Shown piece after piece: positions 40,137 to 56,342 of a stretch of DNA of 64,000 nt. Numbering within the stretch: the first letter of the stretch is position 1; the number at the start of each line of letters is the position of its first letter. The notes below the pieces were generated by a model, which saw only the letters and a program-made list of their open reading frames with translations, ran no database searches and had not been told where the DNA came from. Source of the DNA: Phycisphaerae bacterium (lineage in GTDB: Bacteria; Planctomycetota; Phycisphaerae; WQYP01); assembly GCA_049977145.1 (NCBI GenBank), contig JBMFGW010000004.1, positions 4,791 through 68,790 on the forward strand. Direction: 5' to 3'. The translations under genes were made by a program, and so were the position numbers.

Positions 40137-41489
40137 ATGCTGGAGGATCAGACCGCTTTATCCGAAAAATCTCCGGCCGCACCAGCGCCGCCGGTACTGG
40201 TGCGCTGGTTATATAATCTACGCATTGGATGGGAAATTCTCCGTGCGCGGCGGGTGGAGGATCGCACCGGGCAACAGGCGGCGGCGATGACGTACAACAC
40301 TCTTTTCAGTCTGTTACCGGTAATGGTATTGCTGCTGGTCTTGATGTCTCTGGTGCTGACCAAGCAACAGATTCATCATGAGGAAATGGCGCTCGTACAT
40401 CGGCTGGGTTTAAGCCAGCTTTCCACCCGGGGTGTTACCGGCGCCACGACCAAGCCACAATTTATTGTCCAGACCATCATCCATCAGATTGATAAAATGC
40501 GCACGGTGCTGCGCTCTCCAGGCACAGGTATCGTTGGTTTTATCACCTTGCTCTGGGCGGCCATCAGCCTGATGCACGTCATCGAAACCGCGTTTAATCG
40601 TATCTACCGCGTAACGGAAAATCGCCCATGGACACGCAAGGTTACGCTGTATTGGTGCGTGCTTTCGCTGGGGCCGCTGGCGGTGGCCGCGTCGCTTTTT
40701 GCCTCCGCCAAACTCATCGCGATGGCCGACGCGCTGCATCTAAGTGCGGCGGTATTCACTCCGTTTGGCATTCTGGTGAGTTATGCCGGGGATTGGGCCT
40801 TAATTTTTGTGATTTATAAATTAATACCCAACACGATTGTCCGGTGGAAAGCCGCGGCCGTAGGCGCTTTGGCCGCCACGTTTTTGTGGGAGGCGGGAAA
40901 ATATGGTTTCGGCTTTTACGTTCATGATTTGGCGGGATATGGTAAATGGTATGGCAATCTGGGACTGATCCCACTATTTATGCTGTGGATATTTTTGACG
41001 TGGAACTTTCTGCTGCTCGGCCTGGAAATTGCTTTTATCCAACAGTTTTTTCCGATACTCAAACGCCGTTTTATCATGCACCGGGGCGGACGTTCCACGT
41101 TGACCGATAGCCGCTGGATTTTGCCGCTGGCCATTTTGATGGTGCATCGTTTTGAGGAAGGCAAGAAACTCACGGCGGAAATGGCGGCCAATGAATTGGG
41201 TTTGGCGCTGGAACCAGTGGTGGAAATGCTCTCTTCGCTGGCGAAAGCGGGGCTGATACTGCCGGTTGGCGGACAACCGCAGCAATATGTGCTGGCCAAG
41301 GCGCCGGAAAACATTGGCGTGGCGGAAATCCTGCATGCCGTTGCAGACGGCTGCCACACAATTACTGATTCCATGGCGACGACCGAGGAAGAGCATGTCC
41401 TGCGGCGTCCGCGTTTACGGGAGTTTTATGATCTTGAATCGCAATGGGGAAAACATCATACACTGGCGGAACTGGCGGCGCGTACCTAA
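40137..41489 (+). CDS. YihY/BrkB-family membrane protein fused to a C-terminal Rrf2-like winged-helix domain
   Basis: YihY polytopic core of about 300 aa, then a 150-aa tail (LTAEMAANELGLALEPVVEMLSSLAKAGLILPVGGQPQQYVLAKAPENIGVAEILHAV) that resembles an Rrf2/BadM wHTH. Confidence 0.7.
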   Translation: MLEDQTALSEKSPAAPAPPVLVRWLYNLRIGWEILRARRVEDRTGQQAAAMTYNTLFSLLPVMVLLLVLMSLVLTKQQIHHEEMALVHRLGLSQLSTRGVTGATTKPQFIVQTIIHQIDKMRTVLRSPGTGIVGFITLLWAAISLMHVIETAFNRIYRVTENRPWTRKVTLYWCVLSLGPLAVAASLFASAKLIAMADALHLSAAVFTPFGILVSYAGDWALIFVIYKLIPNTIVRWKAAAVGALAATFLWEAGKYGFGFYVHDLAGYGKWYGNLGLIPLFMLWIFLTWNFLLLGLEIAFIQQFFPILKRRFIMHRGGRSTLTDSRWILPLAILMVHRFEEGKKLTAEMAANELGLALEPVVEMLSSLAKAGLILPVGGQPQQYVLAKAPENIGVAEILHAVADGCHTITDSMATTEEEHVLRRPRLREFYDLESQWGKHHTLAELAART

Positions 41490-41589
41490 ATTGATTGGCG
41501 CCGGATGGGTTGATATAAAGATAGATTCCCAAACCTGTTTAATGCCACTTGGGGCCGGCGCCTACAGCTCCTTTAACCAATTCCGGATT

Positions 41590-42060
41590 CTAAAACAATC
41601 CCGCCGCAACGCCGCCGCACCCATAAAGCCGCGACCGCGGGTCGCGCCCCGTTTACCCCGTACACACCGCGTACCTTCGCATCGTGAAACATTGCCGGTA
41701 GTCCGTTACGGATTCGATCGGACAAATGCGTTAAACAAGAGCCGTTTTCGGATTAGCGCGGCCACCCGTTCGCGCGTTTTGGTCGTGGCGTCGCCGCACC
41801 CGTCAAATGTGAACAGCCCGGAGACATCGGCGTTGTGGAACCTTCCAATGTGCGCAATGGACCGCCGGTGGCCGTTGACGCCGAGCGTGGCAATTTTTCC
41901 GGGCCACGCAGCGGTGCGGGAGCTAATTACGTCCCCGTTTCACTTCGCACCCGCCCGCCGCCATCACCTTTTAGCCGCGGGCATTGTGCCGCGCGTCCCC
42001 GTTTATTCCATCCCTCCGCAGCCCTTGCGACGAGCGCATAATTTTCCCAGAAATCAACGG
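41590..42060. repeat. Degenerate copy 1 of a ~550-bp intercassette repeat
   Basis: It shares CATAAAGCCGCGACCgcgGGTCGCGCCCCGTTTA and CCTTTTAGCCGCG blocks with copies 2 and 3, and lies just 3' of vapBC. Confidence 0.5.
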
Positions 42061-42101: not shown

Positions 42102-42515
42102 TTATCTTCCAGCGGGACTAATGATGTCCAACCGTGGAAAATAGGTTCGGTAACGTCCCATGTCGCGCGTCATCAGTTTGAGTCCTTCAACCGCCGCATG
42201 CGCACCAATAAAAAAATCAGGTAATACCACTATCTTCTCACCGCCACGTCGTCGATATGACAAAAAGCATTTTGCCGCCAGAAAGGCCGCCTCATAAGGT
42301 ATGCCACGGCGTTCGAACCACTCCGGCGGAAGTGCTTCGTTGACATCCTCAATACGGGAAAATCGCACCGATACCTCGACGAAAATTACCGCATTGATGA
42401 CCAGCGTATGGCGTTCCGCCGCCTCGGCCAATGCCTCGCTGGACCATTGAAACCATTGGGAATCCTCGGTGAGAATATCGAGCAACACATTAGAATCCAC
42501 CATGATGCCGGGCAT
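42102..42515 (-). CDS. vapC: PIN-domain ribonuclease toxin VapC
   Basis: PIN acidic residues (MVDSNVLLDIL..., EVS). Confidence 0.85.
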   Translation of the reverse strand: MPGIMVDSNVLLDILTEDSQWFQWSSEALAEAAERHTLVINAVIFVEVSVRFSRIEDVNEALPPEWFERRGIPYEAAFLAAKCFLSYRRRGGEKIVVLPDFFIGAHAAVEGLKLMTRDMGRYRTYFPRLDIISPAGR

Positions 42516-42518
42516 GTG

Positions 42519-42740
42519 TCACATCCGTGTAAGTTTCATAATCTCATCGGTCGATAAGCCGGTGCCGGCGCGGCCACGCATCCGTGCAATCAAAGCGTTT
42601 CCTCGTCGGCCCTTGGAGATCTTGCGTAAAACAATCTCCCGGCCGCGAATGATAAATTCCACGTCCGTGTGTGGAAGAATTCCAGCGCGTTCGCGAATCG
42701 CCCGAGGAACTGTTACTTGGCCTTTCACTGTCACCTTCAT
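42519..42740 (-). CDS. vapB: AbrB/MazE/SpoVT-type antitoxin VapB
   Basis: MKVTVKGQVTVPRAIRERAGI swapped-hairpin motif. 73 aa, separated from vapC by 3 nt. Confidence 0.75.
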   Translation of the reverse strand: MKVTVKGQVTVPRAIRERAGILPHTDVEFIIRGREIVLRKISKGRRGNALIARMRGRAGTGLSTDEIMKLTRM

Positions 42741-43218
42741 GGTTGAAACTCCTATGCACCGGCCGCGCCACGCTTTCGATCATTAACAGCGGACGGCGTA
42801 TGGTAATACTCTTACAGGTATTATTACTACTCTGCAATGCAAACGCAAATAGAAAGCGGTGTGGGTGGCGGTCTATAATTTTATGGCTCTTCGGGCAAAC
42901 CAGTGGGTAAATTATGCTCGAAAAAATGATGTGAGCGGCAATTGGCCGTGTTTTTCTGTCGCTTCACAGAGTTTCAAAACTGTTGATTCTCATGGGATGG
43001 AAAAACGTAGCTACAAACGACGGTTATCGGATGCCTATCGATTCGCTGGTTTTCGCATGGCCCCCAAAGTCACCGGCATGTTTGGTGATCCCAAGGCGCG
43101 GTTGCTGCGTCTATCGCGGCGCTCAAAACACGCTTTGCGGCTGCTGTGGAAAGGCCCACAGCGGCTGGTATGACCATAAAACTCGACGGGTGCGTGATCT
43201 TTCGTGCGGAGACATGTG

Positions 43219-43770
43219 GAAGCCGAAATCTCCCGACACATCGGGACAGGCCCTTTGCCGCAGGAGCCGGCTAATCGGGGCTTCACCTCATTCCCGATCA
43301 ACCGCACCCCGGCGACAGCCGCCGCACCGGGGCCGCCCCAATGACCATTGAGCATTGAGCGCAGCGCCGCTGCGCCTCATAAAGCCGCGACCGTTGGTCG
43401 CGCCCCGTTTAGCGTCGTCGGCTGCCGACGGGCGCTCCCCATTCCCAAATCCCCCAGCCCCGCCGCGGCGGAACATCTGGGGGCGCTGGTGTCCCCACCC
43501 GCCGTAGTCCCAGTTCCAATGAGGCCGCAACGCCCATCCGCCAAACTCATCACCGGCAAACCTTATTCTGCCAACCTCGCTGGGCATGTATCTTAATATC
43601 TACGCGCACGGGCCAAACCGTTACCGCCGCACCGAACCGCAATATATCCTTTTAGCCGCGTGGCCTTGGCCCGCGCGTTCGCAGCGGAAATCCCACGCCC
43701 ATGCCAAAAAATATAGCCGCACCAAGGGCAATGCGTTATGCCTTGCATATATTCAATAAACGATGGATGT
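43219..43770. repeat. Copy 2 of ~550-bp structured intercassette repeat (ends in AAACGATGGATGTC)
   Basis: About 90% identical to 46600-47151. Internal hairpins are TCCCGAcacaTCGGGA, GCGACCgttGGTCGC, CGTCGGCtGCCGACG and CCCCCAG...CTGGGGG. Confidence 0.8.
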
Positions 43771-43852
43771 CCCCTTTTTCGCATCTTTCGCCTGTTGCAA
43801 TTATTACGGGAATTCGAGGAAGCCTCGAACAAAATCGGCATTTGCCAAGGAA

Positions 43853-44281
43853 TCACTCCGTTGAAGGCTTATCTTGGAGGTATTGCCACCCTCGCGCCTT
43901 TGCGTGCTGCTTCAACTTTTCCGCTTTCTTTGAAGCTTGGCTTTTGCCATCTTGCCCAAAATCGATAAGGGCGTGCGCCGGGTGTGTGGTTGGGTCTGGG
44001 TTTGGCGTTAGGCTGAGAGCGGTGCACTCTTTTACACTGACCGACATAACCCCGATAGAGAGGTAGCCTAACTCTCTGCTGTAATGCCTCCACGACTCCT
44101 CGGCGGTGATTTTATCGCCATCGTAAACCGAGAGCTTGTTTCTATCTTTCGGCGTTGGGCGGAAAACTTGCGATGTGATTTCCCCGTCTTGGCACCAGCT
44201 GGGATGCACCTGCCGGTGTAACAATGTTTCGTCAGTCATTCCGCCGCTCCACCCAGGGTCATTATTTGCGCCACCAACCAC
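43853..44281 (-). CDS. Hypothetical protein (142 aa) with basic Lys-rich C-tail; downstream gene of the unknown two-gene operon
   Basis: The ORF has an internal ATG (M15) forming an ATGA start/stop overlap with the upstream gene. No recognisable domain. Confidence 0.6.
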   Translation of the reverse strand: MVGGANNDPGWSGGMTDETLLHRQVHPSWCQDGEITSQVFRPTPKDRNKLSVYDGDKITAEESWRHYSRELGYLSIGVMSVSVKECTALSLTPNPDPTTHPAHALIDFGQDGKSQASKKAEKLKQHAKARGWQYLQDKPSTE

Positions 44282-45390
44282 TTCCAGGATTCAGGAAGAT
44301 TAAGGTTCAAGGCCTTGTTACTTTCTTCCACGTCCGTTGTAAGATCGACCTGAAACCAATCGGCATTGTGGGTTTTAATGTCGATTTCCAAGGATGCCGC
44401 GATTTGGCCTAGCTTCCATTCCGCCTGAATGCCACCCTCTACCGTGGGATATAAACGTGGTAAAATCGCCTCCTCAGAATAATATTTATTAAACGCACCT
44501 CTTAACCAAATGAGCCCATCGGAAGCGGGCGCTTTGCCTTCGCCTTCGAGCCATCCATCTTTCAGGTTGGCTATCTCTTCCAATCTCATTTCCACGTCAA
44601 GTGGATCGAGTTCATTAATATGTTCGATTGACTCAAAGCTCTCCAACCTCTTGCTGCGGTTAAACTTTCCAACGCCCTGCAGGAGCACGCGATACCCCTG
44701 CCTATATTTTGCGAACGCTTTCAAGACGGGATCGAGGTGCTGGGGGGCCAATGGGGCGAAGATTTTGTGACCATCCGCCTCCTGTAGTTGGAAGGTCATC
44801 TTGGCTTGGTCAGCCTCGCAGATCGCAGCACGAAGCGTTACATCTTCGGTATAGTCCTTTACAGTGTCGGAGGCTAAAAGTAAGGCTCGTCTGACGGTTA
44901 ATGTTAAACGAGTAACTGCTCCACCATCAGGGGACGTGAACTCGATGGCTTCATCTCCTCGGAGGCTGCGACCGATCCTGTCGAACCAGCCCAGTTTTTC
45001 TTTTGGGACATGGTTAAAGATTTCCTTGGGATTTGCTGCTGCTTTTATTGCGGCGAGAACTGAATCTCTTCCCTTCTCAAGCCAAGTTACAATGTCTGAC
45101 GGGAACAACATGTCGGTGGAAACCGAAAGCGCAATTACAGGGATTGCGCTTCCCGCCTCAACTGCGGTAAGCTTCAGCGAAATACCCTCGGTGAAATGAC
45201 GCGGTGATCGCTCGCGGTTTGGGTTGGCTTTCAAAAATTCATGTTTGGCCATTTCCAAGATCATGGCTTCTAGCGCGGCTAAGTCACCTAGGACTTCCAA
45301 TGGGATAGAATGTTCTTCAAACCTTGGCCCAACGAAACGGGGACGTAAAAATTCAGTTTCGTCCATCAACCTTACCTCGTAAGCCTGCAC
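44236..45390 (-). CDS. Hypothetical protein (384 aa); upstream gene of the unknown two-gene operon
   Basis: Long ORF of coding-like composition with no recognisable motif. It is translationally coupled to the 142-aa gene. Confidence 0.65.
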   Translation of the reverse strand: MQAYEVRLMDETEFLRPRFVGPRFEEHSIPLEVLGDLAALEAMILEMAKHEFLKANPNRERSPRHFTEGISLKLTAVEAGSAIPVIALSVSTDMLFPSDIVTWLEKGRDSVLAAIKAAANPKEIFNHVPKEKLGWFDRIGRSLRGDEAIEFTSPDGGAVTRLTLTVRRALLLASDTVKDYTEDVTLRAAICEADQAKMTFQLQEADGHKIFAPLAPQHLDPVLKAFAKYRQGYRVLLQGVGKFNRSKRLESFESIEHINELDPLDVEMRLEEIANLKDGWLEGEGKAPASDGLIWLRGAFNKYYSEEAILPRLYPTVEGGIQAEWKLGQIAASLEIDIKTHNADWFQVDLTTDVEESNKALNLNLPESWKWLVAQIMTLGGAAE

Positions 45391-45758
45391 AAATCATCAC
45401 AATCGTGGATACCGCACCTCGAAATTTAGGTTGTTCCCACTGGATACATATGCGATCCCCAGTTCGCTGTGATCGAAGCACAATAATGCTGATATTTTAC
45501 CCGCAGAACACTAAATGGCAACGTCCAGGCACTTCGCGCAGCCATGATTAGTCCCTCTTGCCGGATACCATCAACTTTCGCATCGCCGCATGGAATAGGT
45601 AAAATTCAGCGGGCGCACCACATGCACCGCCGTGGCGGAACTCGGTATCGCGACAACGCCCCCCAAACAACTGCACCAGAATGACAGAATTTTGATAACC
45701 GTCAAGACCTGCGCGGAATCCGGTGCGTCAGTGAAACAATCTGTGTCTTATTAACTGA

Positions 45759-45995
45759 ATGGAGTTCACCATGGAAATATCCGTTAAGGGGGAGTGGCGA
45801 CTCAAATCGCACACGGATGGCGAAGAGTATTCCGGGAAGACTGGAGCGGGCGTCAGCCTCAGCAAGGTTACCATTGATTCTGAATATACGTTCGTCTGCG
45901 AAGAAACAACCGAATTCGCGCTCGCCAGCGGGAAAGAGACCCAAAAGCTTACGCTCATGAGCCTAAGGGAAAATCGCCGATCGGTCATGGAATGA
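45759..45995 (+). CDS. Small acidic hypothetical protein (about 74-78 aa), divergent from the two-gene operon
   Basis: GGAG 7 nt upstream of an internal ATG (MEISVKGE...). Very low confidence. Confidence 0.25.
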   Translation: MEFTMEISVKGEWRLKSHTDGEEYSGKTGAGVSLSKVTIDSEYTFVCEETTEFALASGKETQKLTLMSLRENRRSVME

Positions 45996-46099
45996 GAAAA
46001 TGGATTGCCAGTTGGATGTTTGCTGTTAATCCGGTCGGTCAATTGTGGAAACGGTGGATGTCACATTTTCTATATCCCAAGAAATGCGTGTACTTAGAT

Positions 46100-46113
46100 A
46101 AACGATGGATGTC
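46100..46113. other. Cassette-junction motif AAACGATGGATGTC (site 2)
   Basis: Same core as 43757-43770, 47138-47151 and 49111-49123, all in the same orientation. Confidence 0.5.
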
Positions 46114-46233
46114 ACCAATGCAACTCCCTTAACAATACAGCGCGACTTTGGCCGGGATCGCGATTGGCCGAAAAGACCCCACTGCCCCTCGCTTTTGCGA
46201 TGCTGCAGTATATTCGTAATCAGATTTGTGGCG

Positions 46234-46485
46234 TTATTGTCGAGAGAAAAGCAATTCGTCCGCCGGAACCTCGAATGTAGCGGGACTTTCATCCGCGTTA
46301 CCAACAGGCCGCACGCGCACAAGCCGTCGGCCCAAAGAGCCTATGGCACCTCTATCTTCAACAACGACGACCGAAAGATCGCTGCGACCAAAGCGGATTT
46401 TAGCCCGGCGACCAACGGACGGCACCAAGCGGATTGACCGCCTCGGTTTATGAATTGGTAATTTCGCCATAAAGCATCCCTTCAT
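46234..46485 (-). CDS. Possible small ORF (83 aa) in the cassette remnant between junction site 2 and repeat copy 3
   Basis: ORF only. Competing overlapping ORFs sit in other frames. Confidence 0.15.
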   Translation of the reverse strand: MKGCFMAKLPIHKPRRSIRLVPSVGRRAKIRFGRSDLSVVVVEDRGAIGSLGRRLVRVRPVGNADESPATFEVPADELLFSRQ

Positions 46486-46599
46486 ATCAGAGCGTTAGAC
46501 ATTATAGCATTCGCTACCACCATCGACGGCAGATTGTCGCGCATGGCAAGCCAAGGACAACTCGCTTGCCCCAGCCATAGCCGCTCCCTGTTTAGGCAG

Positions 46600-47151
46600 G
46601 AAGCCGAAATCCCCCGACACATCGGGACAGGCCCTTTGCCGCAGGAGCCGGCTGGCCGGGGCTTCACCTCATTCCCGATCAACTGCTCGGCGGCGACAGC
46701 CGCCGCACCGGACCGTCCCATTGATCATTGTTCATTGAGCGCCGCGCCACCGTCCCTCATAAAGCCGCGACCGATGGTCGCGCCCCGTTTAGCGTCGTCG
46801 GCTGCCGACGGGCTCTCCCCTTCCCAAAATCCCCCAGCCCCGCCGCTGCGGACGATCTGGGGGCGCGGGTGTCCCCACCCGCCGTAGTCCCAGCTCCAAT
46901 GAGGCCGCAACCCCGATCCGCCGAACTGGCCACCGGCGAACCCTATTCTGCCAATATCGCTTGGCATGTATCTTAATATCTACGCGCACGGACTAAACTA
47001 TTACCGCCACACCGAACCACAATATATCCTTTTAGCCGCGTGGCCTTGGCCCGCGCGTTCGCAGCGGAAATCCTACGCCCATGCCAAAAAATATAGTCGC
47101 ACCAAGGGCAACGCGTTATGCCTTGCTCGCAGCTAATGGACGATGGATGTT
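46600..47151. repeat. Copy 3 of ~550-bp structured intercassette repeat (ends in GGACGATGGATGTT)
   Basis: About 90% identical to copy 2. Stem sequences are conserved while loops vary (GCGACC-gat-GGTCGC). It ends 20 nt from the AIPR stop. Confidence 0.8.
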
Positions 47152-47171
47152 AGACGTTCGCGTCGCCTCTT

Positions 47172-48956
47172 TTAGTCTGCCGCCCACCGATCATCGAATT
47201 CGTCCGCGTCCATCCTTAGCGAGTCCCGCAGCTTCTGGCTCAGCTCACGGCCGCCGGGCATTGATGGAAGCATGTTAAAATATTGTCCGACTGCCTGCCG
47301 GATTCCTGCCAAACACGCCTTTGTTTTGATCCAGTTTTGTGGGCTGAATACGCGGTTGGCCAGCTGGGGCTCATTTGCGGCCGCCTCAAGTGCGCTGTTT
47401 AGGCACGTTCCGGCTGCGTCTACCACCTGACCAATAAGATTGGCCGCCTTTGCCCTCTCATACGCAACCACAGGGTTAGGAACGCCGTCGCCTCTAGAGT
47501 TTGCCTGGCAGAAGTACAGTGAGACAGCGTACAAGTGGTTATACGGGGCATAGGATCGCATTGCCAACAGCGACTCATTCAACCCAAGGGGATTGTCTTT
47601 CTTCCACCGCTTTTCAATCTCCTGCATCCAATGCGACAGAGCATAAGCGTTCTCGGGTGCATACTCCCGATTACGTTTGAAAAGTTGCTCGAAGTGCTTG
47701 TCGAAGAGCTTGTTTTCGCTATACGAGATGTTTGGTCGCTGTGAATGCCAAGCCATCATCCACTTCGCCAACTCCATCAGATCGACAACCTCCGTCCCAT
47801 CGCGATCTGCAGGTGGCTTCTCGCCCCTTTTGGTAATGAAGTATCCCATTGGATATTTCTGCTCGTACGACTTCTTCGTGGCGAGAACACGCCGGTCGTT
47901 GCTGCGCAAATCCCTTGGCTTGACACCGCTCTGGGAGTTGGTGGAGATGCTGATCCTGTCGCCGCGGTTCCGCTCCGGAATCTCATAAAAGCGGAACATC
48001 GCATAAGCACTGTCGAGTTCCTTGACTCGCTCGCTGCATGAAAGGATGGTGTTCAGCGACTGACAACCGTTGACGATGCTGAGGCCCTTTATCGTCAGCA
48101 TGCCGTCGTTAATATCGAACTTACTGCAGATTGCGGTGACACCGTTGTGGAGGAAGAAGAAGTCATCTGCCCGATCACTATAAATTGTGTCCTTGATGCC
48201 CTTATTCACACGATTGTTCAAGCCCAACGACTGGCGGACATTCTTTTGAAAGAGCGTCCCATCCTTGATGCCCGGAATGGCGATACAGTCTTTCAACGGG
48301 ATCGCGGCGACGATACATTTCGTTCCGCCGATTTCCATTGCCATATACTTGTCAGATTCCAGCGTGACCTTATGGCTGATGAGCGGGTTCTCGCGATCCA
48401 GCGAAATATCGTAACGACGCTTCAGTTCCTCCGGGTCAACAACATGTATCTCCGCCGGAAAATCCTCTGCTTCAGCGATATTTTCCTGAAACTGCGCAAG
48501 ATCCTCCTTGGCGCCAGTGGTCAAGAACCCGGTGGCGATGAGCTCGAAGGAAACGTTATATTCATCTTCAATCGCAGTGGCAACTTCGGCGAGCCGGCGC
48601 TTAAGCCTTTGATTCCCAGTAGCCTGCAATTTGACAATATCTTTGAGCTTAATCCATGATGACAGCACCTCTCGCAAAGGTGCCGCGTCTATAGTCGGTT
48701 GGCCCACAAATTTGCCCTGGATAACGTAAACCGTTGCGTTGCCATCGTCCACAACGATTGCATCAATCTGCTGGTCGTCGGGGCCATCTGTGACATCCTC
48801 TCGGGTTTCAATCATGTCGCGGCCATGAATGTTATGCACATACCAAGCGACGAAACGCTGCCCGTCATTGACGTATTTTTGTTGAAAATACTCACCTTGA
48901 ATTTCTTTTTTAATCTGGTCGTAAATCGATGGCACGGGATCGGGGGACAAAGTCAT
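47172..48956 (-). CDS. AIPR-family abortive infection phage resistance protein
   Basis: 594 aa with the AIPR-like core (FFFLHNGVTAICSKFDINDG) and a long C-terminal helical region. The segment is visibly AT-richer than its neighbours. Confidence 0.75.
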   Translation of the reverse strand: MTLSPDPVPSIYDQIKKEIQGEYFQQKYVNDGQRFVAWYVHNIHGRDMIETREDVTDGPDDQQIDAIVVDDGNATVYVIQGKFVGQPTIDAAPLREVLSSWIKLKDIVKLQATGNQRLKRRLAEVATAIEDEYNVSFELIATGFLTTGAKEDLAQFQENIAEAEDFPAEIHVVDPEELKRRYDISLDRENPLISHKVTLESDKYMAMEIGGTKCIVAAIPLKDCIAIPGIKDGTLFQKNVRQSLGLNNRVNKGIKDTIYSDRADDFFFLHNGVTAICSKFDINDGMLTIKGLSIVNGCQSLNTILSCSERVKELDSAYAMFRFYEIPERNRGDRISISTNSQSGVKPRDLRSNDRRVLATKKSYEQKYPMGYFITKRGEKPPADRDGTEVVDLMELAKWMMAWHSQRPNISYSENKLFDKHFEQLFKRNREYAPENAYALSHWMQEIEKRWKKDNPLGLNESLLAMRSYAPYNHLYAVSLYFCQANSRGDGVPNPVVAYERAKAANLIGQVVDAAGTCLNSALEAAANEPQLANRVFSPQNWIKTKACLAGIRQAVGQYFNMLPSMPGGRELSQKLRDSLRMDADEFDDRWAAD

Positions 48957-49110
48957 CTGTAGGCCTTTCGTTGAGAACGACGACAGGGCAATATTCTACA
49001 ACATCCCGCCAGCGCCCGATAGGGGATCGATTCCCGGCGAAGAAAGCGGGGCGAAGATCTTACGGCGCGATGCCGCAGCGGGGGCACGAACTGAGTGCGG
49101 TTTGCGTCTA

Positions 49111-49123
49111 TTCAATGGATGTC
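49111..49123. other. Cassette-junction motif TTCAATGGATGTC (site 4)
   Basis: It shares TATTCAAT...GGATGTC with site 1 and lies about 45 nt 3' of the protease stop. Confidence 0.45.
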
Positions 49124-49166: not shown

Positions 49167-49967
49167 CTACCATGGCATCGCATGATGGTCCAGCGCGCCG
49201 TCGGCACGCAAGAACGCTGCGTGAGCGACGAAGATAGTCGCATGGATTCCTTCGCCACTCTCGTACATGAAGCCCACCAGTTGCGGGATATTCCGGGCCT
49301 CGTCCACGACGTACACGGCGCTGCCACTCATACCGCCCAGCGAGGTCAGCTCATCGAGATCAGGATTGCACTTAACGGCAACCCGCACCATATCCCCATC
49401 CGCGAGAACGATATGCCGGGCCGAAACAGAGGTCACGAAATCGCAGACCGGAGTCGCCCGCGCGTCCAGTCCACCGGCGCTGGACGCGCGGTGCGCTCCC
49501 GGGAATCCTAACAAGACCGCAACCTGACCCTCCATGGCGCGGATCGGGGGCCAAACCTCGGCCCTGAAATAGGATTTCCCACTACCCGTGATGCGTTCCG
49601 GATCCGGCAGCCTAAGCACCGCTAAATCCAGTCGCGTTCCACCGTTTTCAACAAGATGGGCGTCCGATACGATCACTGGCGGGACGCCGTTCCCGGCCCC
49701 GACGGCCAGAACGGCGTGCGGATTGGCTTCCCTTAATTCATTGAAGCGGTCGATCACATGGCCGCATGTGACCAGAAGTTTCGCGGTGCCGGTGTCGATG
49801 AAGGAGGCGGTGCCATTGCAGATCACGTCGCTCGGCGGTGCTCCGCTGCTCGGCAAGAGCAGCAGCATGCCGACGTGCGGCAACAGCCGAGGGGTGATTT
49901 TTTCCAGTCGATCCTTAAGTTCCTTTTCATCCATCTGAAATGCTCCAGCACCACCGAACCTCGACAA
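49167..49967 (-). CDS. Cytoplasmic trypsin-like (S1/chymotrypsin-fold) serine protease
   Basis: His-Asp-Ser in canonical order (LLVTCGHVI, LDLAVLRL, LGGMSGSAVY). No signal peptide. The start is probably the second ATG (MDEKELK, 49934) with GGAG upstream. It lies about 55-90 nt 3' of hsdS on the same strand. Confidence 0.7.
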   Translation of the reverse strand: MSRFGGAGAFQMDEKELKDRLEKITPRLLPHVGMLLLLPSSGAPPSDVICNGTASFIDTGTAKLLVTCGHVIDRFNELREANPHAVLAVGAGNGVPPVIVSDAHLVENGGTRLDLAVLRLPDPERITGSGKSYFRAEVWPPIRAMEGQVAVLLGFPGAHRASSAGGLDARATPVCDFVTSVSARHIVLADGDMVRVAVKCNPDLDELTSLGGMSGSAVYVVDEARNIPQLVGFMYESGEGIHATIFVAHAAFLRADGALDHHAMPW

Positions 49968-50021
49968 AACCAGTCGTATCTTTCAACCCCTCCGCCCGCC
50001 CTAAATTTGAGATCCCGTTCA

Positions 50022-51224
50022 TCACAACTCCCCATTAAACGCCCGGTGCAACATGGACTGAAACAGGGCATCAAGCCGGGCGCGGCTGGTGGTTTGAGCG
50101 GATTCGATCTGGCGGATTTCGGTCACCCGTTGGGCAAATTTCTTTTGTAATGGCAGTGGCGGGAAGGGAATCGCCAACTCGCTCAAGAATTTTAGGTTTA
50201 TATTTTTTTGGGCCATTTGTGGTGCAGCTTCCTCGAGATGATTTTCCATGGTAACGAGACAAGCACGAACGTAATCGGCAGCAACGCCATCGCTCGGGAT
50301 AAACCCGACCATACTGTCTGGAAAGCAGGCCGGAAATGTCAGGATGGCTGTTTTGCCAATGTTCGCGGCAATGGTGACAACGAGCGTTCCAGCAGGCCAC
50401 ATTCGGCTTTGGGCGAAACCCTTTTCCGAATAGGTCTGGGTATAGGTGGTGATCTCGCCGTTGGCACTGGCAACATCGCCCGTCTGGATAAATGGATATT
50501 TGCCCCCATAGAGGCTGGGATCTCCTCGCGGGCGATTTCTGGAGCGTCCGCGATCAAGCTTACCTATTTCAGGGAGCATTTTGACTTTCCAACCTTCGGG
50601 ATTTGTGACAGGATCACCAAACATCTCCTGAAAAAGCGCGGGGATGAGGTCGGCGGTGCGGCGGTCGGCTTGGGCGCGGAGTTTTCGCAACCCGTCGGCC
50701 TCGTCCAGCAGCTTCACGATCCGCTCCTGCTCCGCCAGCGGCGGGAGGGTAATGGTGGTCGCTCTCAGGTGAGATGGGCCGAAGTTTTGTTGAGCGGATC
50801 CGGTTACGAGCCGGGTGATCTGCCCACGAAATTCGACCGAATCGAGCCAGTGCCGCAGCCAGCCCAGGCTTGAGACCCCCTCTTTCGGTTTGAACCGGAT
50901 CGTGCTGGTGTTGAGGCAGAGAGGTAGGTGTTGCGTCTCGACAAACGCGCCGCGAGTCCGCAATAAACCATCCTTGTCAAACGAGATTCCCGAACTGGCT
51001 ATTACCATGTCGCCCGCATCTATGAGAAAGTGAGAATACTTTTCCTGAACTTCCTCATGGGCAAGGTAGCGTTCCGTGCTCGACAAGTCGAGATTCCCCT
51101 CACTCGTAATATTTGCAACGTTGAGGAGCTTGACGCCTGATCCGCGGAACTGCCATTTACGAACACCCGGTCCCTCTTGAAACCAATAGGCATCCCCTAG
51201 CGGTTTTGTTGGCCAGCGCTTCAT
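50022..51224 (-). CDS. hsdS: Type I restriction-modification specificity subunit HsdS
   Basis: Two target-recognition domains separated by a conserved central repeat (PPLAEQERIVKLLDEA) and a terminal repeat (PLPLQKKFAQRVTEI). ATGA overlap with hsdM. Confidence 0.9.
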   Translation of the reverse strand: MKRWPTKPLGDAYWFQEGPGVRKWQFRGSGVKLLNVANITSEGNLDLSSTERYLAHEEVQEKYSHFLIDAGDMVIASSGISFDKDGLLRTRGAFVETQHLPLCLNTSTIRFKPKEGVSSLGWLRHWLDSVEFRGQITRLVTGSAQQNFGPSHLRATTITLPPLAEQERIVKLLDEADGLRKLRAQADRRTADLIPALFQEMFGDPVTNPEGWKVKMLPEIGKLDRGRSRNRPRGDPSLYGGKYPFIQTGDVASANGEITTYTQTYSEKGFAQSRMWPAGTLVVTIAANIGKTAILTFPACFPDSMVGFIPSDGVAADYVRACLVTMENHLEEAAPQMAQKNINLKFLSELAIPFPPLPLQKKFAQRVTEIRQIESAQTTSRARLDALFQSMLHRAFNGEL

Positions 51225-52738
51225 TCGCTCCCCCCACCTTTCGCCAACAACGCTTCGCCGCGTCGAACAATTTCACCCTCCAACTTAATCACCTCGCGGA
51301 GAATGTCCGAAGGCGCATCATGATTCACGGCTTCGCTGGTCACAGCCCTGTATCGGCCTGCGGCCAGGCTCCAATCGTTTTCCTTGATTTTCTCAATCGC
51401 CACGCGATAGCTTTTGGCACTTTCTTCGCGTGTTGGCCATTTGGCCAAAATATCGGGAATATCGTTGGCTTCAATGGGGCTGCGTTTGTCGTCCAGACTT
51501 AGGCCATCGGCCCCCAAATCGTAAAACCAGACGGATTTTGTCGGCGTACCCTTCTGAAATATCAACGCTGCCGTAGCCACGCCCGCATAAGGCTTGAAAA
51601 CCCCGCTGGGCAAATTGATGATGGCTTGCAGATCGCACTCGGTTAATAGCGCTTCGCGTAGTTTTACCGCAGCGTTTGTTGAGCCAAATAACACGCCATT
51701 GGGCACAATAACACCTGCCCGCCCGCCCGGTGCCAGATGATCCACAAACCATTTTAGAAATAGCAGTTCGGTGGCCCGGGTGTTTAACTTATAATTCAGA
51801 TCCGCGAGAATGCTTTCATCCTGCACCTTGCCGGAGAATGGCGGATTGGCCAAAATAACTTCAAAGCGTTCCCCCGGATACACCCCGCCAAATCCCGTTG
51901 TCAACGGGTTGAAATGCTCAACGCGCGCCCGTTCCAACTGGTGCAGATATAAATTAAGAATCGCGATTTTGACCATATTGGCGTCGTTATCAAAGCCGGT
52001 AAAGGCCTGTGATCCCAGAAACTTCCATTGGGCCGATTTGAGCAGCGATCCATAAATGTGCCCCCGCTTCAGGTCGGCCGGTTTGGTGTTTTGCCGCAGA
52101 ATGTGATTAAGCGCGGAGATAAGAAAGCCCGCCGTGCCGCACGCGGGGTCACAAATCCGCTGGCCCGGTTGCGGGTTCACCAATTCAACCATCAGGTCAA
52201 TAATGTGGCGCGGGGTGCGGAATTGGCCATTAGTGCCGGACATGGAAAGCTTGGATAGCAGATATTCGTACATATCGCCTTTAAGATCGTGGCCATCATG
52301 CGCGGCAAGGTCCATTTCCTCAATGCCCTGAATGATGGCGCGCAGCGTGGGGCGGTCATAAATTTTCAGTGTGGCGCGGCCAAACAGGAGCTTGCCGGTG
52401 TCGCTTAGGTTCGGCAGCTCATGCAAACTTTCAATGGCGTCACGGGCGGCATTGAACAGTTCATCCCCAGCCAGAGTCACAAAGTTACCCCAGGCAAAGC
52501 GTGCCCATTTACCGGAGAAAATGCGGGTATATTTTTTATCAAGCCCCGCAAGGGCCTCATCCTTTTCAGTCAGCAGGCGTAAAAACAGCAGATAAGAAAT
52601 CTGCTCAATGGAATCCATCGGGTTATTTACCCCGCCGGAATACAGGATGTCCATAAGCTGGTCCACCCGCTGGCGCAAGCCGGAGGAAAAGAAATTGGAA
52701 CCATTGGTTTTTATTGGTGGATCCGTCGCCATATTCAT
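51221..52738 (-). CDS. hsdM: Type I restriction-modification DNA methyltransferase HsdM
   Basis: HsdM N-terminal domain, an AdoMet-binding region and the N6-adenine MTase motif IV (NPPF: ILANPPFSGK). Confidence 0.9.
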   Translation of the reverse strand: MNMATDPPIKTNGSNFFSSGLRQRVDQLMDILYSGGVNNPMDSIEQISYLLFLRLLTEKDEALAGLDKKYTRIFSGKWARFAWGNFVTLAGDELFNAARDAIESLHELPNLSDTGKLLFGRATLKIYDRPTLRAIIQGIEEMDLAAHDGHDLKGDMYEYLLSKLSMSGTNGQFRTPRHIIDLMVELVNPQPGQRICDPACGTAGFLISALNHILRQNTKPADLKRGHIYGSLLKSAQWKFLGSQAFTGFDNDANMVKIAILNLYLHQLERARVEHFNPLTTGFGGVYPGERFEVILANPPFSGKVQDESILADLNYKLNTRATELLFLKWFVDHLAPGGRAGVIVPNGVLFGSTNAAVKLREALLTECDLQAIINLPSGVFKPYAGVATAALIFQKGTPTKSVWFYDLGADGLSLDDKRSPIEANDIPDILAKWPTREESAKSYRVAIEKIKENDWSLAAGRYRAVTSEAVNHDAPSDILREVIKLEGEIVRRGEALLAKGGGSE

Positions 52739-52747
52739 TGCACCTTT

Positions 52748-55171
52748 TTATGCACTGGCCAGCAGGGATTGCCGGACCAGGCCGGACTGGCGCAGGGCTT
52801 CAAATACTTCGCCACGCGCCTCAAACCGAGATAATGCCGTGACGCCGCCCAGCGGATTAAACTGTATCTCGCTGAACATCGTCATATCCCCCGCCATGAA
52901 TTTTTTAAGCGAGTTACCATCCTCGGCAATCAGTTCGGCGGTGGCGTTAAGCCACTTCTGCTCATTGTAACGCAGATTAAACCGCGCGGCGATGGAGTCC
53001 ACCGTATCGCAAATAATCGCGTCACGCGTCGGCAACGGCTTACGCCCGACGGCATTGTAAACAAAGGCCGGAGTGCTTGCCGGCACACCATAAGAGATGA
53101 TGAGCTTGTCCGGGGAGTAATACATTTCCGGGCGGTGATAAAACCGTTCGTTAACCAGCGTTTCAACCGTGTCATCATCTTCCGCATCAACAGCGGTCTG
53201 CATTTCCGGAGTCCGGGCGACAAACTCTCTGATGTCTCGCTCATAACCGCCACGAAACGTCATCAGGTCCACCTTCTGCCCGTCGGGCCCGACAACGGTT
53301 ATTTCCCGGCTCACCAGCTTGTCCACACCCTCCCAGGTCGGAATGTCCCGCGGTGGCGGCGCGCTCAAATCAGGCGGCGTACCATCCGCGGTGGCAACTT
53401 CGCCATCACCATCACCTTCACGCAGAATCACCCCTTGCGGCAAATGGGGCGGGTAGGTGGTGGGTTCCGATTGCTGTTTGGGGCGTGGCAGCTTGAGCGG
53501 AACAGTATAGTCGTATTTTTCCTCAAAATATTCGGCTACTGCGCAGAAATCCAGTATCAGGAAATATTTCTTTTCGTGTTCCGTGTTGCCGATCTTAAAG
53601 GTAAACAGTCGCGTGCCGCGTCCCTTAATCTGGATGTATTCGGTTGGGGAAAAAATGGGCCGCATCAGGCCAATATTCAGCAAGTCCTGGCAGTTGTAGC
53701 CGGTGGAAAGCATATCGACGGAAACGGCGATGCGTTCACTACGTTTCCCGTCGCGAAATTCCTTGGCTATTTCCGCGGCACCTTCAATCCGGCTGGTGAT
53801 GGTGACGGCAATACCAGGCTCAAGTAAGTTGAAAATTTTCGTCAGCTCGGTCGCATGAGTTTGGTTCACCGCAAACACCAGAGATTTCCCGATGTTGTTC
53901 GCCGGGTCCCGCTTCGCTTCAGCCAAAAACTCCTCGCAGATAACGCGGTTGCGGGCGGGAGTGAAGATTTTCCGTTCAAGGTCCTTAATCTTGAAATTCT
54001 CTTCCTGCTCGTTAATGACCACCGCCCAGCCGGAGTCGGCCAGCGCCTGCGTGGTGATGTCCGAGCGCAGGTCAATAATTTTGGGCAGGCAAAGGAACGG
54101 ACCCTCCGGGTCTTTCACCGCGTCAACAATGTCATAACGGAAAGTCGGAAAGCCGGGCTTGCAGCCAAAATAATTGTAGGTGTCCCGGAACAAGCGCGCT
54201 TCAAGCGCCTTGGGATTTTCCTGCTCAAGCTGTTCCATATCCACATTTTTCAAATAGGCCTTGGGCGTGGCGGTCAGACCGACGCGGGTAGCCTGGAAAA
54301 ATTGCACCACCTCCCGCGCGTCGCCGTAAATTGAGCGGTGAGCTTCATCATTAACCACCAGATCAAAGTGAAATGGCGTGAATTCCTCCCGGTAGCGGCG
54401 GTCCACCATCAGCGATTGCAGCGTGGCGACCACCACCGATGAGCCAAGCAATTCGCCGGATTTCCGGCGCGCGGTTTTATAGAGAACCGGCTTGTACTCG
54501 GCAAGCATGACATTGAATTCTTCCAGCGTCTGCTTGGCCAGTTCAATGCGGTCCACAATAAACAAAACCCGCTCGGCGTTGCGCGTGGCAAGAAAGCGCC
54601 GGATCAACGCGGCGCACAGCAGCGTCTTGCCCGTGCCGGTCGCCATTTCCAGCAGGAATCCGCGGCGGGCCTGATCATCAAACTGCCGCGATACGGTGTC
54701 CAATGCCGCAATCTGGTAGCGCCGCAGTTCGCGGTCGGGACGAAATCTTTTCAGATAATCGGGCGTGATGATCTCGCTCATCAACGCGCGCGGCGGTTGC
54801 AGATTTTTCAGGCGCAACCGTTCGAGGTCTTCAAGAGATGGCAGCCGCTCAATACGGTAGGCATCCCGATCCTTGCGGGTGTAATTCCAGAACCAGTGCT
54901 CCCGGCCATTGGAGAGAATCACGAACGGGGCTTTGCGGTTTTCGGCGTAGCCACGGGCCTGCTCCTTGGCGTTGTATGGATCAACATCTTCGCGTTTGGC
55001 TTCCAAAACACAAAGCGGGCCGCGCTGGCCGAAAAGGACATAATCCGCCCGCCCGGTAGCATCGCTTAGCTCAAAGCGGACCTGATGGGCATCCAGCAAG
55101 TTCCAACCGCTGTATTCCAGCGCCTTGTCAATGAGAACCCGCGAAAATGCCTCATTTTCCTGATTTTGCAT
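52748..55171 (-). CDS. hsdR: Type I restriction enzyme R subunit HsdR
   Basis: N-terminal nuclease domain (ADYVLFGQ...VLEAKRE), SF2 helicase motifs (GTGKT, DEAH as VVNDEAHRS) and a C-terminal domain. 807 aa. Confidence 0.9.
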   Translation of the reverse strand: MQNQENEAFSRVLIDKALEYSGWNLLDAHQVRFELSDATGRADYVLFGQRGPLCVLEAKREDVDPYNAKEQARGYAENRKAPFVILSNGREHWFWNYTRKDRDAYRIERLPSLEDLERLRLKNLQPPRALMSEIITPDYLKRFRPDRELRRYQIAALDTVSRQFDDQARRGFLLEMATGTGKTLLCAALIRRFLATRNAERVLFIVDRIELAKQTLEEFNVMLAEYKPVLYKTARRKSGELLGSSVVVATLQSLMVDRRYREEFTPFHFDLVVNDEAHRSIYGDAREVVQFFQATRVGLTATPKAYLKNVDMEQLEQENPKALEARLFRDTYNYFGCKPGFPTFRYDIVDAVKDPEGPFLCLPKIIDLRSDITTQALADSGWAVVINEQEENFKIKDLERKIFTPARNRVICEEFLAEAKRDPANNIGKSLVFAVNQTHATELTKIFNLLEPGIAVTITSRIEGAAEIAKEFRDGKRSERIAVSVDMLSTGYNCQDLLNIGLMRPIFSPTEYIQIKGRGTRLFTFKIGNTEHEKKYFLILDFCAVAEYFEEKYDYTVPLKLPRPKQQSEPTTYPPHLPQGVILREGDGDGEVATADGTPPDLSAPPPRDIPTWEGVDKLVSREITVVGPDGQKVDLMTFRGGYERDIREFVARTPEMQTAVDAEDDDTVETLVNERFYHRPEMYYSPDKLIISYGVPASTPAFVYNAVGRKPLPTRDAIICDTVDSIAARFNLRYNEQKWLNATAELIAEDGNSLKKFMAGDMTMFSEIQFNPLGGVTALSRFEARGEVFEALRQSGLVRQSLLASA

Positions 55172-55930: not shown

Positions 55931-55968
55931 TGCTTGACAACAAGTGATCTATAAGTTACGGTGGTACC

Positions 55969-56298: not shown

Positions 56299-56342
56299 AC
56301 TTCAAGACATGTCCAGCACATAGCGTATCACATGATGAGGTG

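What the first reader, a model, noticed from the sequence alone, without database searches (positions are those of the whole stretch)
43757..49123. Recurrent 13-14-nt motif (A)AACGATGGATGTC at four cassette 3' junctions
The same core occurs four times in the same orientation. Site 1 is 43757-43770 (AAACGATGGATGTC), site 2 is 46100-46113 (AAACGATGGATGTC), site 3 is 47138-47151 (GGACGATGGATGTT) and site 4 is 49111-49123 (TTCAATGGATGTC). Each sits 15-125 nt beyond the stop of a minus-strand gene unit. Sites 1 and 4 also share the upstream TATTCAAT. Two of the sites are the terminal bases of the long repeat copies. A short conserved core at every module boundary resembles the core site of a site-specific recombination system, or a shared 3'-end RNA processing signal.
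Basis: seen in the sequence. Interest (0 to 1): 0.6.

Follow-up and report, generated by a model that had tools for sequence, protein, structure and literature searches.

The report
Repeat end marking defence-gene junctions
A short sequence that recurs five times, always in the same direction, just after the gene units of an anti-phage defence island in an uncultured Phycisphaerae bacterium is real and not chance. It is the outer end of a non-coding repeat that sits at the joints between separately acquired gene blocks; it is not an integron-type site, and no sign was found that it is an RNA signal.

Summary
CGATGGATGTC with at most one mismatch occurs five times against 1.3 expected. All five are on the + strand, intergenic, and within 43761-49123.

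The locus is a mosaic defence island in a Phycisphaerae MAG: type I RM, a trypsin-like gene, AbiU/AIPR, PDC-M32AB and VapBC, with IS debris. The motif is not a free-standing core. It is the outer tip of a roughly 47-nt "head" that opens a 563-nt non-coding mosaic repeat, which I call E (two copies, 89% identical, carrying REP-like hairpins common in Planctomycetota). Three further sites are short solo heads.

All copies end at the same base, GATGTC|, and unrelated DNA follows. In a related strain, identity falls from 96% to 79% exactly at the motif edge. The core is also the best-kept piece downstream of an AbiU that is 83% identical.

attC, Xer-site, inverted-repeat and terminator features were tested and not met, and the window encodes no recombinase.

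Best reading (0.45): the terminus of a lineage-specific BIME-like extragenic repeat that marks, and probably mediates, module junctions. An att-type core acted on in trans remains possible. A genome-wide count could not be run.

The parts
43758..43771 (+). Motif site 1 (AAACGATGGATGTC). It is the outer terminus of long repeat copy E_A and lies 81 nt past the PDC-M32B stop codon.
46050..46062 (+). Motif site 2' (AACGGTGGATGTC, 1 mismatch).
46098..46113 (+). Motif site 2 (ATAAACGATGGATGTC, the same 16-mer as site 1). A solo head; weak similarity to the E head continues for about 30 nt inward.
   Evidence: (32-nt hit, E=0.11)
47138..47151 (+). Motif site 3 (GGACGATGGATGTT). It is the outer terminus of long repeat copy E_B and lies 20 nt past the AbiU stop codon.
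49102..49123 (+). Motif site 4 (TTGCGTCTATTCAATGGATGTC). A solo head equal to the site 1 sequence minus 7 nt. It lies 43 nt past the trypsin-like gene stop codon and 155 nt upstream of the AbiU start codon.
   Evidence: direct reading of the sequence
43209..43771 (-). Long repeat E_A, 563 nt, non-coding and GC-rich (0.60-0.62). It is a mosaic: head (43726-43771), a hairpin followed by GCTAAAAGG, a REP-like hairpin, a tail block, and a sharp inner edge at GGAAGCCGAAATC that abuts an ISL3-like gene fragment.
   Evidence: no protein homologue of its longest ORF; no Rfam match
46590..47151 (-). Long repeat E_B, 562 nt, 89% identical to E_A and with the same two edges. The 13 nt between its core and the motif are unrelated to those of E_A.
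43378..43406 (-). REP-like hairpin GGGGCGCGACCNNCGGTCGCGGCTTTATG inside E_A. Further copies lie at 46758-46786 (in E_B) and 41622-41650 (downstream of vapC).
   Evidence: The same unit was found in at least 120 stretches of Planctomycetota MAG DNA, often as inverted pairs about 60 nt apart.
43853..45537 (-). PDC-M32 module. M32B is at 43853-44239/44281 and M32A at 44236-45390; the promoter region reaches 45537. The block shared at 95-96% identity with the relatives L121 and L147 spans 45537 to about 43773.
47172..48998 (-). AbiU/AIPR single-gene module with a conserved -10-like TAGAAT at 48993-48998. Homologues occur in three other genomic contexts.
46234..46485 (-). 83-aa ORF between E_B and site 2, with no family hit. 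Whether it is a gene is uncertain.
49167..55171 (-). Trypsin-like peptidase gene (49167-49967) followed by a type I RM system: hsdS (50022-51224), hsdM (51221-52738) and hsdR (52748-55171).
42859..43208 (+). ISL3-like transposase N-terminal fragment that stops at the inner edge of E_A.
   Evidence: tblastn hit to an annotated ISL3 transposase, E=4e-3. No Pfam or NCBIfam hit, so the identification is weak.
42102..42740 (-). vapB (MazE/AbrB-type, 42519-42740) and vapC (PIN, 42102-42515). This is the leftmost island module. The island's left edge is at about 41493.

Best explanation
The motif is the conserved outer terminus of a lineage-specific, non-coding, mosaic extragenic repeat, which I call E.

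Anatomy (shown). The recurring unit is a head of roughly 47 nt. On the gene strand it reads GACATCCATCGTTTAT...CATAACGCATTGCCC. In two places the head opens a 563-nt mosaic that also carries REP-like hairpins common in Planctomycetota. In three places only the head, or its tip, is left. The arrangement resembles the BIME/REP clusters of enterobacteria. The units sit in the gaps just downstream of transcription units, all in the gene orientation, and each has a sharply defined outer edge.

Consequence (shown). The island was assembled from independently acquired blocks: type I RM with a trypsin-like gene, AbiU, an ORF-poor block, PDC-M32, and VapBC. The repeats therefore coincide with block joints.

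Mechanism (inferred). The heads were placed by an end-specific DNA enzyme encoded elsewhere, such as a RAYT/HUH-type or other transposase or recombinase. They are then homogenised or exchanged between copies. The E copies, which lie in direct orientation, serve as portable homology that lets defence blocks be swapped, duplicated or deleted.

Not claimed. The motif itself is not proposed to act at the RNA level, and it is not an integron attC site.
For: - Non-random cluster: 5 hits against 1.27 expected, same strand, all intergenic.
- The motif is contiguous with the long repeat (553-nt alignment at 89%). Site 4 matches the 15 nt just inside site 1's motif at 13 of 15 positions (TTGCNTNTATTCAAT, read), with a 7-nt deletion. 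Site 2 gives a 32-nt hit to the E head.
- In the relative L147 the same head (47 nt, 79% identical) follows PDC-M32B, but it is joined to a different body and then to the E tail block. E is therefore modular.
- E contains short hairpin units that recur independently. GCGCGACCNNCGGTCGCGGCTTTAT occurs in at least 120 planctomycete stretches, often as inverted pairs. A second 30-nt hairpin occurs in a metagenome contig. An 82-nt REP-plus-tail segment lies upstream of PDC-M32 in L121.
- E shows no sign of coding: its longest ORF has no homologue, and an indel between the two copies shifts the frame.
- The outer edge is the same at all five sites and unrelated DNA follows it.
- Divergence from L147 rises five-fold at that edge: 22 mismatches in 568 nt against 10 in 47 nt, p=5e-5. 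This is expected if the repeats have a history separate from the cassette.
- GC content is mosaic: E and the trypsin-like gene are about 0.62, while PDC-M32 and AbiU are about 0.50.
- REP families are already documented in Planctomycetes (PMC3733652).
Against: - Copy number across the genome is unknown. In the 49 kb of the window outside the island there is no copy of the motif, the head, or even the phylum-wide REP hairpin. That is unusual for a dispersed extragenic repeat family.
- Apart from the head seen in L147, the non-REP parts of E were not found in 129 fetched loci, nor in the plasmid, phage or viral collections.
- The head itself is not palindromic and does not fold, unlike classical REPs.
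- No RAYT or other transposase gene was seen in the window.
- Excluding the core, local alignment of the flanks of sites 2, 2' and 4 against E was not significant. That test cut off part of site 4.
- Conservation of ATCCATCG at nearly the same offset after AbiU in a second species would also fit a function tied to the gene rather than to a repeat.
Confidence: 0.45

Rival explanations
1. The motif is an att-type core of a site-specific integration system acting in trans. Each defence block entered as a circle through a short core (about ACGATGGATGTC), leaving the core duplicated in direct orientation on both sides. The array is a tandem accretion, integron-like in logic, and the recombinase is encoded elsewhere or has been lost.
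For: - There are five direct-orientation copies with one identical sharp edge at block joints.
- Only the outer end of E is scattered; its inner end never is.
- Three of the copies are reduced to little more than the core.
- The history changes exactly at the core edge when compared with L147.
- The core is kept after AbiU in another species while the rest of the flank has diverged.
- All cassettes point the same way, with the site at their 3' side.
Against: - No integrase or recombinase gene was found in the Pfam scans of the window's larger ORFs.
- There is no tRNA or tmRNA target.
- The core has no dyad symmetry and no attC-like fold. GTTRRRY is present at 1 of 5 sites.
- The upstream edge of the PDC-M32 block shared with L121 is at 45537, 510 nt from the nearest motif.
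- AbiU in two other contexts lacks the motif on both sides.
- The similarity between sites 1 and 4, and between site 1 and L147, extends well beyond a core into the head.
Confidence: 0.22
2. The motif is a cis-acting signal read on the gene strand: an operator or promoter element for the unit downstream (AbiU, the E transcript, PDC-M32), or a 3'-end formation or processing signal for the unit upstream.
For: - The orientation is strictly the same as the genes.
- Site 4 lies 155 nt upstream of AbiU.
- There is modest extra conservation upstream of the core: GAA at positions -8 to -6 in 4 of 5 sites.
- The motif core is retained after AbiU in a second species.
- The minus strand of E folds somewhat better than shuffled sequence (z=-2.4, against -0.05 for the + strand).
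Against: - No sigma-70-like -10 or -35 hexamers are conserved around the sites, as read in the site alignment; the promoter scan reports no promoter-like site at any motif.
- The conserved promoter of AbiU (TAGAAT, 48993-48998) and the shared promoter region of PDC-M32 lie far from the motif.
- The distance to stop codons ranges from 20 to 120 nt, and PDC-M32B has its own terminator-like hairpin before the motif.
- No hairpin is shared by the sites.
- The hairpin after sites 1 and 3 is not kept in L147.
- AbiU homologues function in contexts without the motif.
Confidence: 0.15
3. The motif has no function. One segmental duplication produced the two long copies, and the three short sites are chance or slippage products.
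For: - Two of the five sites are explained by the 563-nt duplication.
- Chance 16-mer pairs do occur in this window.
- The flanks of the short sites are not significantly similar to E once the core is removed.
Against: - 0 of 100 shuffles give 5 hits.
- All the extra sites fall in the same 5.4 kb, on the same strand, in intergenic DNA, and with the same outer edge.
- The head also occurs in a second strain.
- The 13 nt between the motif and the E core differ completely between the two long copies while the motif is kept.
Confidence: 0.1

Closest known systems
BIME/REP clusters (bacterial interspersed mosaic elements) and REPINs, thought to be mobilised in trans by RAYT transposases
   Same: - Short non-coding units combined in variable mosaics.
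- Located in extragenic gaps at the 3' ends of transcription units.
- Discrete edges.
- Bona fide REP-like hairpins are embedded in E, and these occur in inverted pairs in related genomes.
- The enzyme would be encoded elsewhere.
   Different: - The motif and head are not palindromic.
- Copies are seen only inside one island of the window.
- No GTAG or CGTC tag was examined, and no RAYT gene was found.
- The genome-wide copy number is unknown.
Integron cassette arrays and CALINs (clusters of attC sites lacking an integrase)
   Same: - Co-oriented cassettes, each followed by a recurring site.
- No recombinase next to the array.
- Defence genes as cargo.
   Different: - No attC architecture (R''-L''/L'-R' imperfect palindrome).
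- No folded single strand.
- GTTRRRY is present at 1 of 5 sites.
- The recurring unit is the tip of a 47- to 563-nt repeat.
Tandem genomic islets flanked by att direct repeats (integrase-mediated accretion at the 3' end of a tRNA or tmRNA gene)
   Same: - Direct repeats of one end of a longer sequence, scattered in one orientation between inserted blocks.
- One full-length copy plus short end-fragments.
   Different: - No tRNA or tmRNA.
- No integrase gene.
- Two full-length copies are present, and the inner edge of E is itself a discrete joint.
Flanking-homology 'hotspot' exchange of defence cassettes, as in minimal mobile elements and core defence hotspots (from my own knowledge; not checked in the literature here)
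   Same: - Different defence blocks sit between conserved repeated sequences.
- In both the window and the relative, PDC-M32 is bracketed by E-like segments.
   Different: Here the shared sequences are non-coding repeats inside the island, not conserved core genes.

Membership tests
Integron attC / CALIN | Imperfect palindrome (R''-L''...L'-R') that folds as a single-stranded hairpin of 57-141 nt | tested here: not met
   ssDNA folds of 91-141 nt around all sites, on both strands, give z-scores from -0.8 to +2.0. No shared inverted repeat was found.
Integron attC / CALIN | Conserved 7-bp core GTTRRRY at every cassette boundary | tested here: not met
   Only site 3 reads GTTAGAC. Sites 1, 2, 2' and 4 read GTCCCCT, GTCACCA, GTCACAT and GTCATTA.
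Integron attC / CALIN | Co-oriented cassettes, each followed by the site | tested here: met
   All units are on the minus strand, and the motif lies 20-120 nt after each stop codon.
Integron attC / CALIN | IntI-type integrase with attI adjacent (not required for a CALIN) | tested here: not met
   No recombinase domain in the Pfam scans, which covered most of the window's ORFs of at least 150 aa; those between 30.4 and 33.6 kb were not scanned.
att-flanked integrative islets (tyrosine or serine integrase) | Identical short direct repeats at both ends of each inserted unit | tested here: inconclusive
   The AbiU and PDC-M32 blocks lie between motif copies. However, the upstream edge of the PDC-M32 block shared with L121 is at 45537, not at a motif. 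In L131 the upstream counterpart is weak.
att-flanked integrative islets (tyrosine or serine integrase) | Integrase gene in the element; target within a tRNA, tmRNA or conserved gene end | tested here: not met
   No tRNA or tmRNA, no Rfam family in the region, no integrase.
att-flanked integrative islets (tyrosine or serine integrase) | Strain polymorphisms with breakpoints in the core | tested here: inconclusive
   Divergence from L147 shifts from 3.9% to 21% at the motif edge, but the head is present in both strains. No empty site was recovered.
REP/BIME-type extragenic repeats | Short units in extragenic DNA, mostly 3' of genes, combined as mosaics | tested here: met
   E consists of head, hairpin units, a REP unit and a tail. 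L147 has the same head and tail with a different body.
REP/BIME-type extragenic repeats | Palindromic (hairpin) repeat unit | tested here: inconclusive
   Met for the embedded REP hairpin. Not met for the motif and head themselves.
REP/BIME-type extragenic repeats | Tens to hundreds of copies dispersed in the genome; cognate RAYT gene | not testable with these tools
   Only 64 kb of the genome is available, and there is no copy outside the island in it.
MITE / IS terminus | Terminal inverted repeats and target-site duplication | tested here: not met
   The two ends of E (GGAAGCCGAAATC... and ...ACGATGGATGTC) are not inverted copies of each other, and the flanks of the two copies share no duplication.
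IS200/IS605-derived PATE | Subterminal hairpins at both ends and a conserved 4-5-nt target next to the left end | tested here: inconclusive
   Hairpins lie about 25 and 13 nt from the ends (TCCCGAYGTGTCGGG; CAAGGCA...TGCCCTTG), but E is full of hairpins. No shared tetranucleotide abuts the E core in the two copies.
Xer/dif-like module sites (pdif) | 28-bp site with two 11-bp arms around a 6-bp spacer, alternating in orientation | tested here: not met
   No dyad structure is present, and all five copies are direct.
Intrinsic terminator | GC-rich hairpin followed by a U-tract at a fixed place relative to the motif | tested here: not met
   Terminator-like sites occur only after sites 1 and 3 (43735-43718, 47115-47098). 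They are not conserved in L147, and none occurs at sites 2, 2' or 4.

The most novel reading that the evidence does not exclude
The motif is the crossover core of an undescribed, integron-like but attC-independent cassette system of Phycisphaerae. Single defence modules (AbiU, PDC-M32, and others) would be captured one after another next to a fixed terminal sequence by a recombinase or HUH enzyme encoded elsewhere, and E would serve as the platform ('attI-like') sequence.
Probability: 0.12. Interest if true: 0.75.

Novelty: new member of a known kind. Interest (0 to 1): 0.35.

Why it matters
How defence islands are assembled outside the model Proteobacteria is largely unknown. Here, in an uncultured Phycisphaerae genome, the joints between defence modules carry the precisely bounded end of a non-coding mosaic repeat, and sequence history changes at that end.

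If these repeats are the substrates on which modules are swapped, they give a concrete marker for tracing cassette exchange in planctomycete metagenomes. This holds whether exchange works through portable homology or through an end-specific enzyme. If the repeat turns out to be an ordinary genome-wide extragenic family, the finding is routine.

Tried and rejected
- **Rfam.** Gathering-threshold and E-value scans found nothing in the region except a chance CRISPR-DR hit at E=3.2.
- **tRNA/tmRNA as target.** None found.
- **E as a protein gene.** The 99-aa ORF has no homologue and the frame is broken by an indel in copy B. A 56/57-aa + strand ORF that ends at the motif is kept in both copies, but with about equal synonymous and non-synonymous changes, and it has no family hit.
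- **E in plasmids or phages.** No match.
- **Genome scan.** I spent it on the hairpin GCGCGACCNNCGGTCGCGGCTTTAT, hoping to recover E. It turned out to be a phylum-wide REP-like unit, and only about 30-60 nt were shared.
- **Metagenome scan.** I spent it on the 25-mer GGGCCAAGGCCACGCGGCTAAAAGG. It gave one hit sharing 30 nt only.
- **Viral scan for the head pattern.** 0 hits.
- **Sigma-70, ECF and sigma-54 readings of the motif.** No conserved partner hexamer at any spacing (by eye).
- **Group II intron, Tn7-like end, DGR, DNA-uptake sequence, DnaA box.** Considered from memory and dropped. No domain V or Rfam hit, no transposase or RT, no second end, and no enrichment outside the island.
- **Synteny with the nearest relatives of the flanking brkB-like gene.** The closest (L129, 84-87% nt identity) loses homology at 41493 and shares nothing further, so no empty site was obtained.
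- **Variable context 335 nt after AbiU in L130-139.** Apart from L130 and L138, which truly diverge at +335, this turned out to be a poly-G length difference and not a junction.

Full report
**Observation.** The four sites exist. Site 1 is 43758-43771, one base off the stated coordinates. A fifth copy in the same orientation, AACGGTGGATGTC at 46050-46062, was missed.

CGATGGATGTC with at most one mismatch gives 5 hits against 1.27 expected, and 0 of 100 shuffles reach 5. All five are on the + strand, within 43761-49123, and intergenic. Three points temper this:
- Two hits belong to the two copies of a long repeat.
- An exact 16-mer pair is not rare in this window.
- The loose 13-mer with up to 3 mismatches is not enriched.

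The signal lies in the clustering, the common strand and the common position.

**Setting.** The window comes from an NCBI MAG labelled Phycisphaerae (exact protein matches). Between a brkB-like gene (40137-41489) and a GDSL-lipase gene (56875-60360) lies a defence island. Reading along the minus strand, it contains:
- type I RM genes hsdR, hsdM and hsdS, then a trypsin-like peptidase gene (55171-49167);
- AbiU/AIPR (48956-47172);
- an 83-aa ORF with no family hit;
- PDC-M32A and PDC-M32B (45390-43853);
- vapBC (42740-42102).

There is also IS debris: an ISL3-like fragment at 42859-43208 (weak support) and IS-like remnants with a higA-like gene at 55580-56699. The nearest relative of the flank (L129) loses homology at 41493, which sets the left edge of the island. 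GC content is mosaic. The Pfam scans covered most ORFs of at least 150 aa (not those at 30.4-33.6 kb) and found no recombinase or transposase gene. There is no tRNA or tmRNA and no Rfam family in the region.

**Anatomy of the motif.** The two long copies, E_A (43209-43771) and E_B (46590-47151), align over 553 nt at 89% identity, and the alignment includes the motif. Both have the same inner edge (GGAAGCCGAAATC) and the same outer edge (GGATGTC or GGATGTT), with unrelated DNA beyond both. The 13 nt between the motif and the rest of E are unrelated in the two copies.

E shows no sign of coding. Its longest ORF has no homologue, and an indel between the copies shifts the frame. It is a mosaic containing short hairpin units that recur on their own:
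- GCGCGACCNNCGGTCGCGGCTTTAT is found in at least 120 stretches of Planctomycetota MAG DNA, frequently as inverted pairs about 60 nt apart, which is REPIN-like. A third copy sits downstream of vapC.
- A second 30-nt hairpin unit is found in one metagenome contig.

Only these units, not the rest of E, are found elsewhere. REP families in Planctomycetes are documented (PMC3733652).

Sites 2, 2' and 4 are short:
- Site 2 shares 16 nt exactly with site 1, plus a weak 32-nt similarity to the E head.
- Site 4 equals site 1 with a 7-nt deletion. It also matches the 15 nt just inside site 1's motif at 13 of 15 positions (direct reading).
- With the core removed, a local alignment test was not significant, though it cut off part of site 4.

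**Related strains.** Three comparisons bear on the motif.

(a) A contig carrying PDC-M32A at 95% nt identity (L121) shares DNA with the window only from 45537 downward, not from the motif at 46050-46113. Upstream it carries an 82-nt E-like REP-plus-tail segment.

(b) A 688-nt contig with the 3' end of M32B (L147) runs through the joint. The 568 nt up to the motif are 96.1% identical. The next 47 nt (GACGTTCATCGTTTATT...CATAACGCATTGCCC) are 78.7% identical (Fisher p=5e-5). Then come 43 unrelated nt, and then the E tail block. Three things follow:
- The joint between PDC-M32B and the motif is shared by two strains.
- The repeat is modular.
- Sequence history changes exactly at the outer edge of the motif.

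(c) AbiU homologues (78-83% nt identity) occur in three other contexts, with homology limited to the gene.
- In the closest group (L130-139), a -10-like TAGAAT upstream is conserved.
- In that group ATCCATCG lies 25 nt after the stop codon (23 nt in the window) and is the best-conserved piece of the 3' flank.
- The other two contexts have no motif.

**What it is not.**
- attC: the sites do not fold (z from -0.8 to +2.0 on both strands), and GTTRRRY is present at 1 of 5 sites.
- Xer-type site: there is no dyad, and all copies are direct.
- MITE or IS end: there are no terminal inverted repeats or target duplications.
- Terminator: only sites 1 and 3 are followed by a weak terminator-like hairpin. 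It is not kept in L147, and PDC-M32B has its own hairpin before the motif.
- Promoter: no conserved partner hexamer was found, and the conserved promoters of AbiU and PDC-M32 lie elsewhere.

**Interpretation.** The common, base-precise outer edge at five sites, the fact that only this end of E is scattered, and the change of history at that edge all argue for a DNA-level junction element rather than an RNA signal.

Between the two DNA-level readings, I favour a BIME-like mosaic extragenic repeat whose head is the recurring unit (0.45). The reasons are that similarity extends beyond a core into a head of about 47 nt, that E is built from REP-type modules, and that cassette edges do not always coincide with a motif. 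An att-type core used by a trans-acting recombinase (0.22) is not excluded and would be the more novel outcome. A cis-regulatory or RNA role (0.15) and no function (0.10) are less likely.

The main weakness is that the genome-wide copy number could not be measured. In the 49 kb outside the island, neither the motif nor the REP hairpin occurs.

**Verdict.** This is a real and modestly interesting junction marker. It is a new member of the extragenic mosaic-repeat kind. Integron membership was tested and not met.

Noticed in passing
window 41622-41650, 43378-43406, 46758-46786; loci L001-L120: The hairpin unit GCGCGACCNNCGGTCGCGGCTTTAT is a REP-like element found across Planctomycetota MAGs (Pirellulales, Thermoguttaceae, Planctomycetaceae, Phycisphaerales). 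It often occurs as inverted pairs about 60 nt apart (REPIN-like). In this window it occurs only inside the defence island.
   Followed up: partly
window 47172-48998; L130-L146: AbiU/AIPR behaves as a single-gene module. Homologues at 78-83% nt identity sit in four unrelated neighbourhoods, with homology ending within a few bases of the stop codon and, upstream, between 10 nt inside the gene and 22 nt before the start codon. A -10-like TAGAAT (48993-48998) is conserved in the closest group.
   Followed up: yes
L121 2557-2638 and L147 658-688, compared with window E_B and E_A: In both the window and a related strain, PDC-M32AB is bracketed by E-like segments in direct orientation. The shared block is GGCGCTGCGCTCA(A/G)TGAACAATG. 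This arrangement would allow excision or duplication by homologous recombination.
   Followed up: partly
window 58978-60310 (inside ORF 56875-60360): There is an internal tandem duplication of about 705-708 nt in the GDSL-lipase-family gene. Long runs of identical 16-mers are offset by 705-708 nt, and the protein repeats a C-terminal module of about 235 aa.
   Followed up: no
window 55540-55565 and 56820-56845: A direct repeat of about 22 nt (CGGCTAAGCCGCYGACAGTGTA on the minus strand) brackets a 1.3-kb segment. The segment holds IS-like transposase remnants (55580-55940), a higB-like fragment (55969-56163) and a higA-like gene (56295-56699, Pfam dnstrm_HI1420).
   Followed up: no
window 42859-43208: A transposase N-terminal fragment ends exactly at the inner edge of E_A. 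It matches a plasmid region annotated as an ISL3 family transposase (69% over 26 aa, E=4e-3). This implies that E, or a larger segment ending with it, replaced the rest of the IS.
   Followed up: partly
window 49167-49967: A trypsin-like peptidase gene (Trypsin_2 at 26.8 bits, just below the cut-off; weak LmuA-like hit) with GC 0.62 sits directly downstream of hsdS, in the same orientation as the type I RM operon. It may be an accessory defence gene.
   Followed up: no
window 43586-43759 and 46966-47136 (+ strand): A 56/57-aa ORF (MYLNIYAHG...) is kept open in both E copies, and its stop codon lies within 2 nt of the motif. It has no family hit, and substitutions are about half synonymous, so it is probably not a gene.
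   Followed up: partly
L130-L139, about 335-343 nt after the AbiU stop codon: A poly-G tract varies in length (G6, G7, G8) among otherwise identical metagenome contigs. This is either a slippage-prone homopolymer or an assembly artefact.
   Followed up: no
window 40137-41489: The BrkB/YihY-family membrane protein is fused to a C-terminal Rrf2-type HTH domain. The fusion is conserved in relatives at 80-86% identity.
   Followed up: no
window 34788-34800: TCGAATGGATGTC shares 10 nt (AATGGATGTC) with site 4 on the same strand, but it lies inside a DUF1559/N-methyl-motif gene (33950-34921). It is most likely chance.
   Followed up: partly
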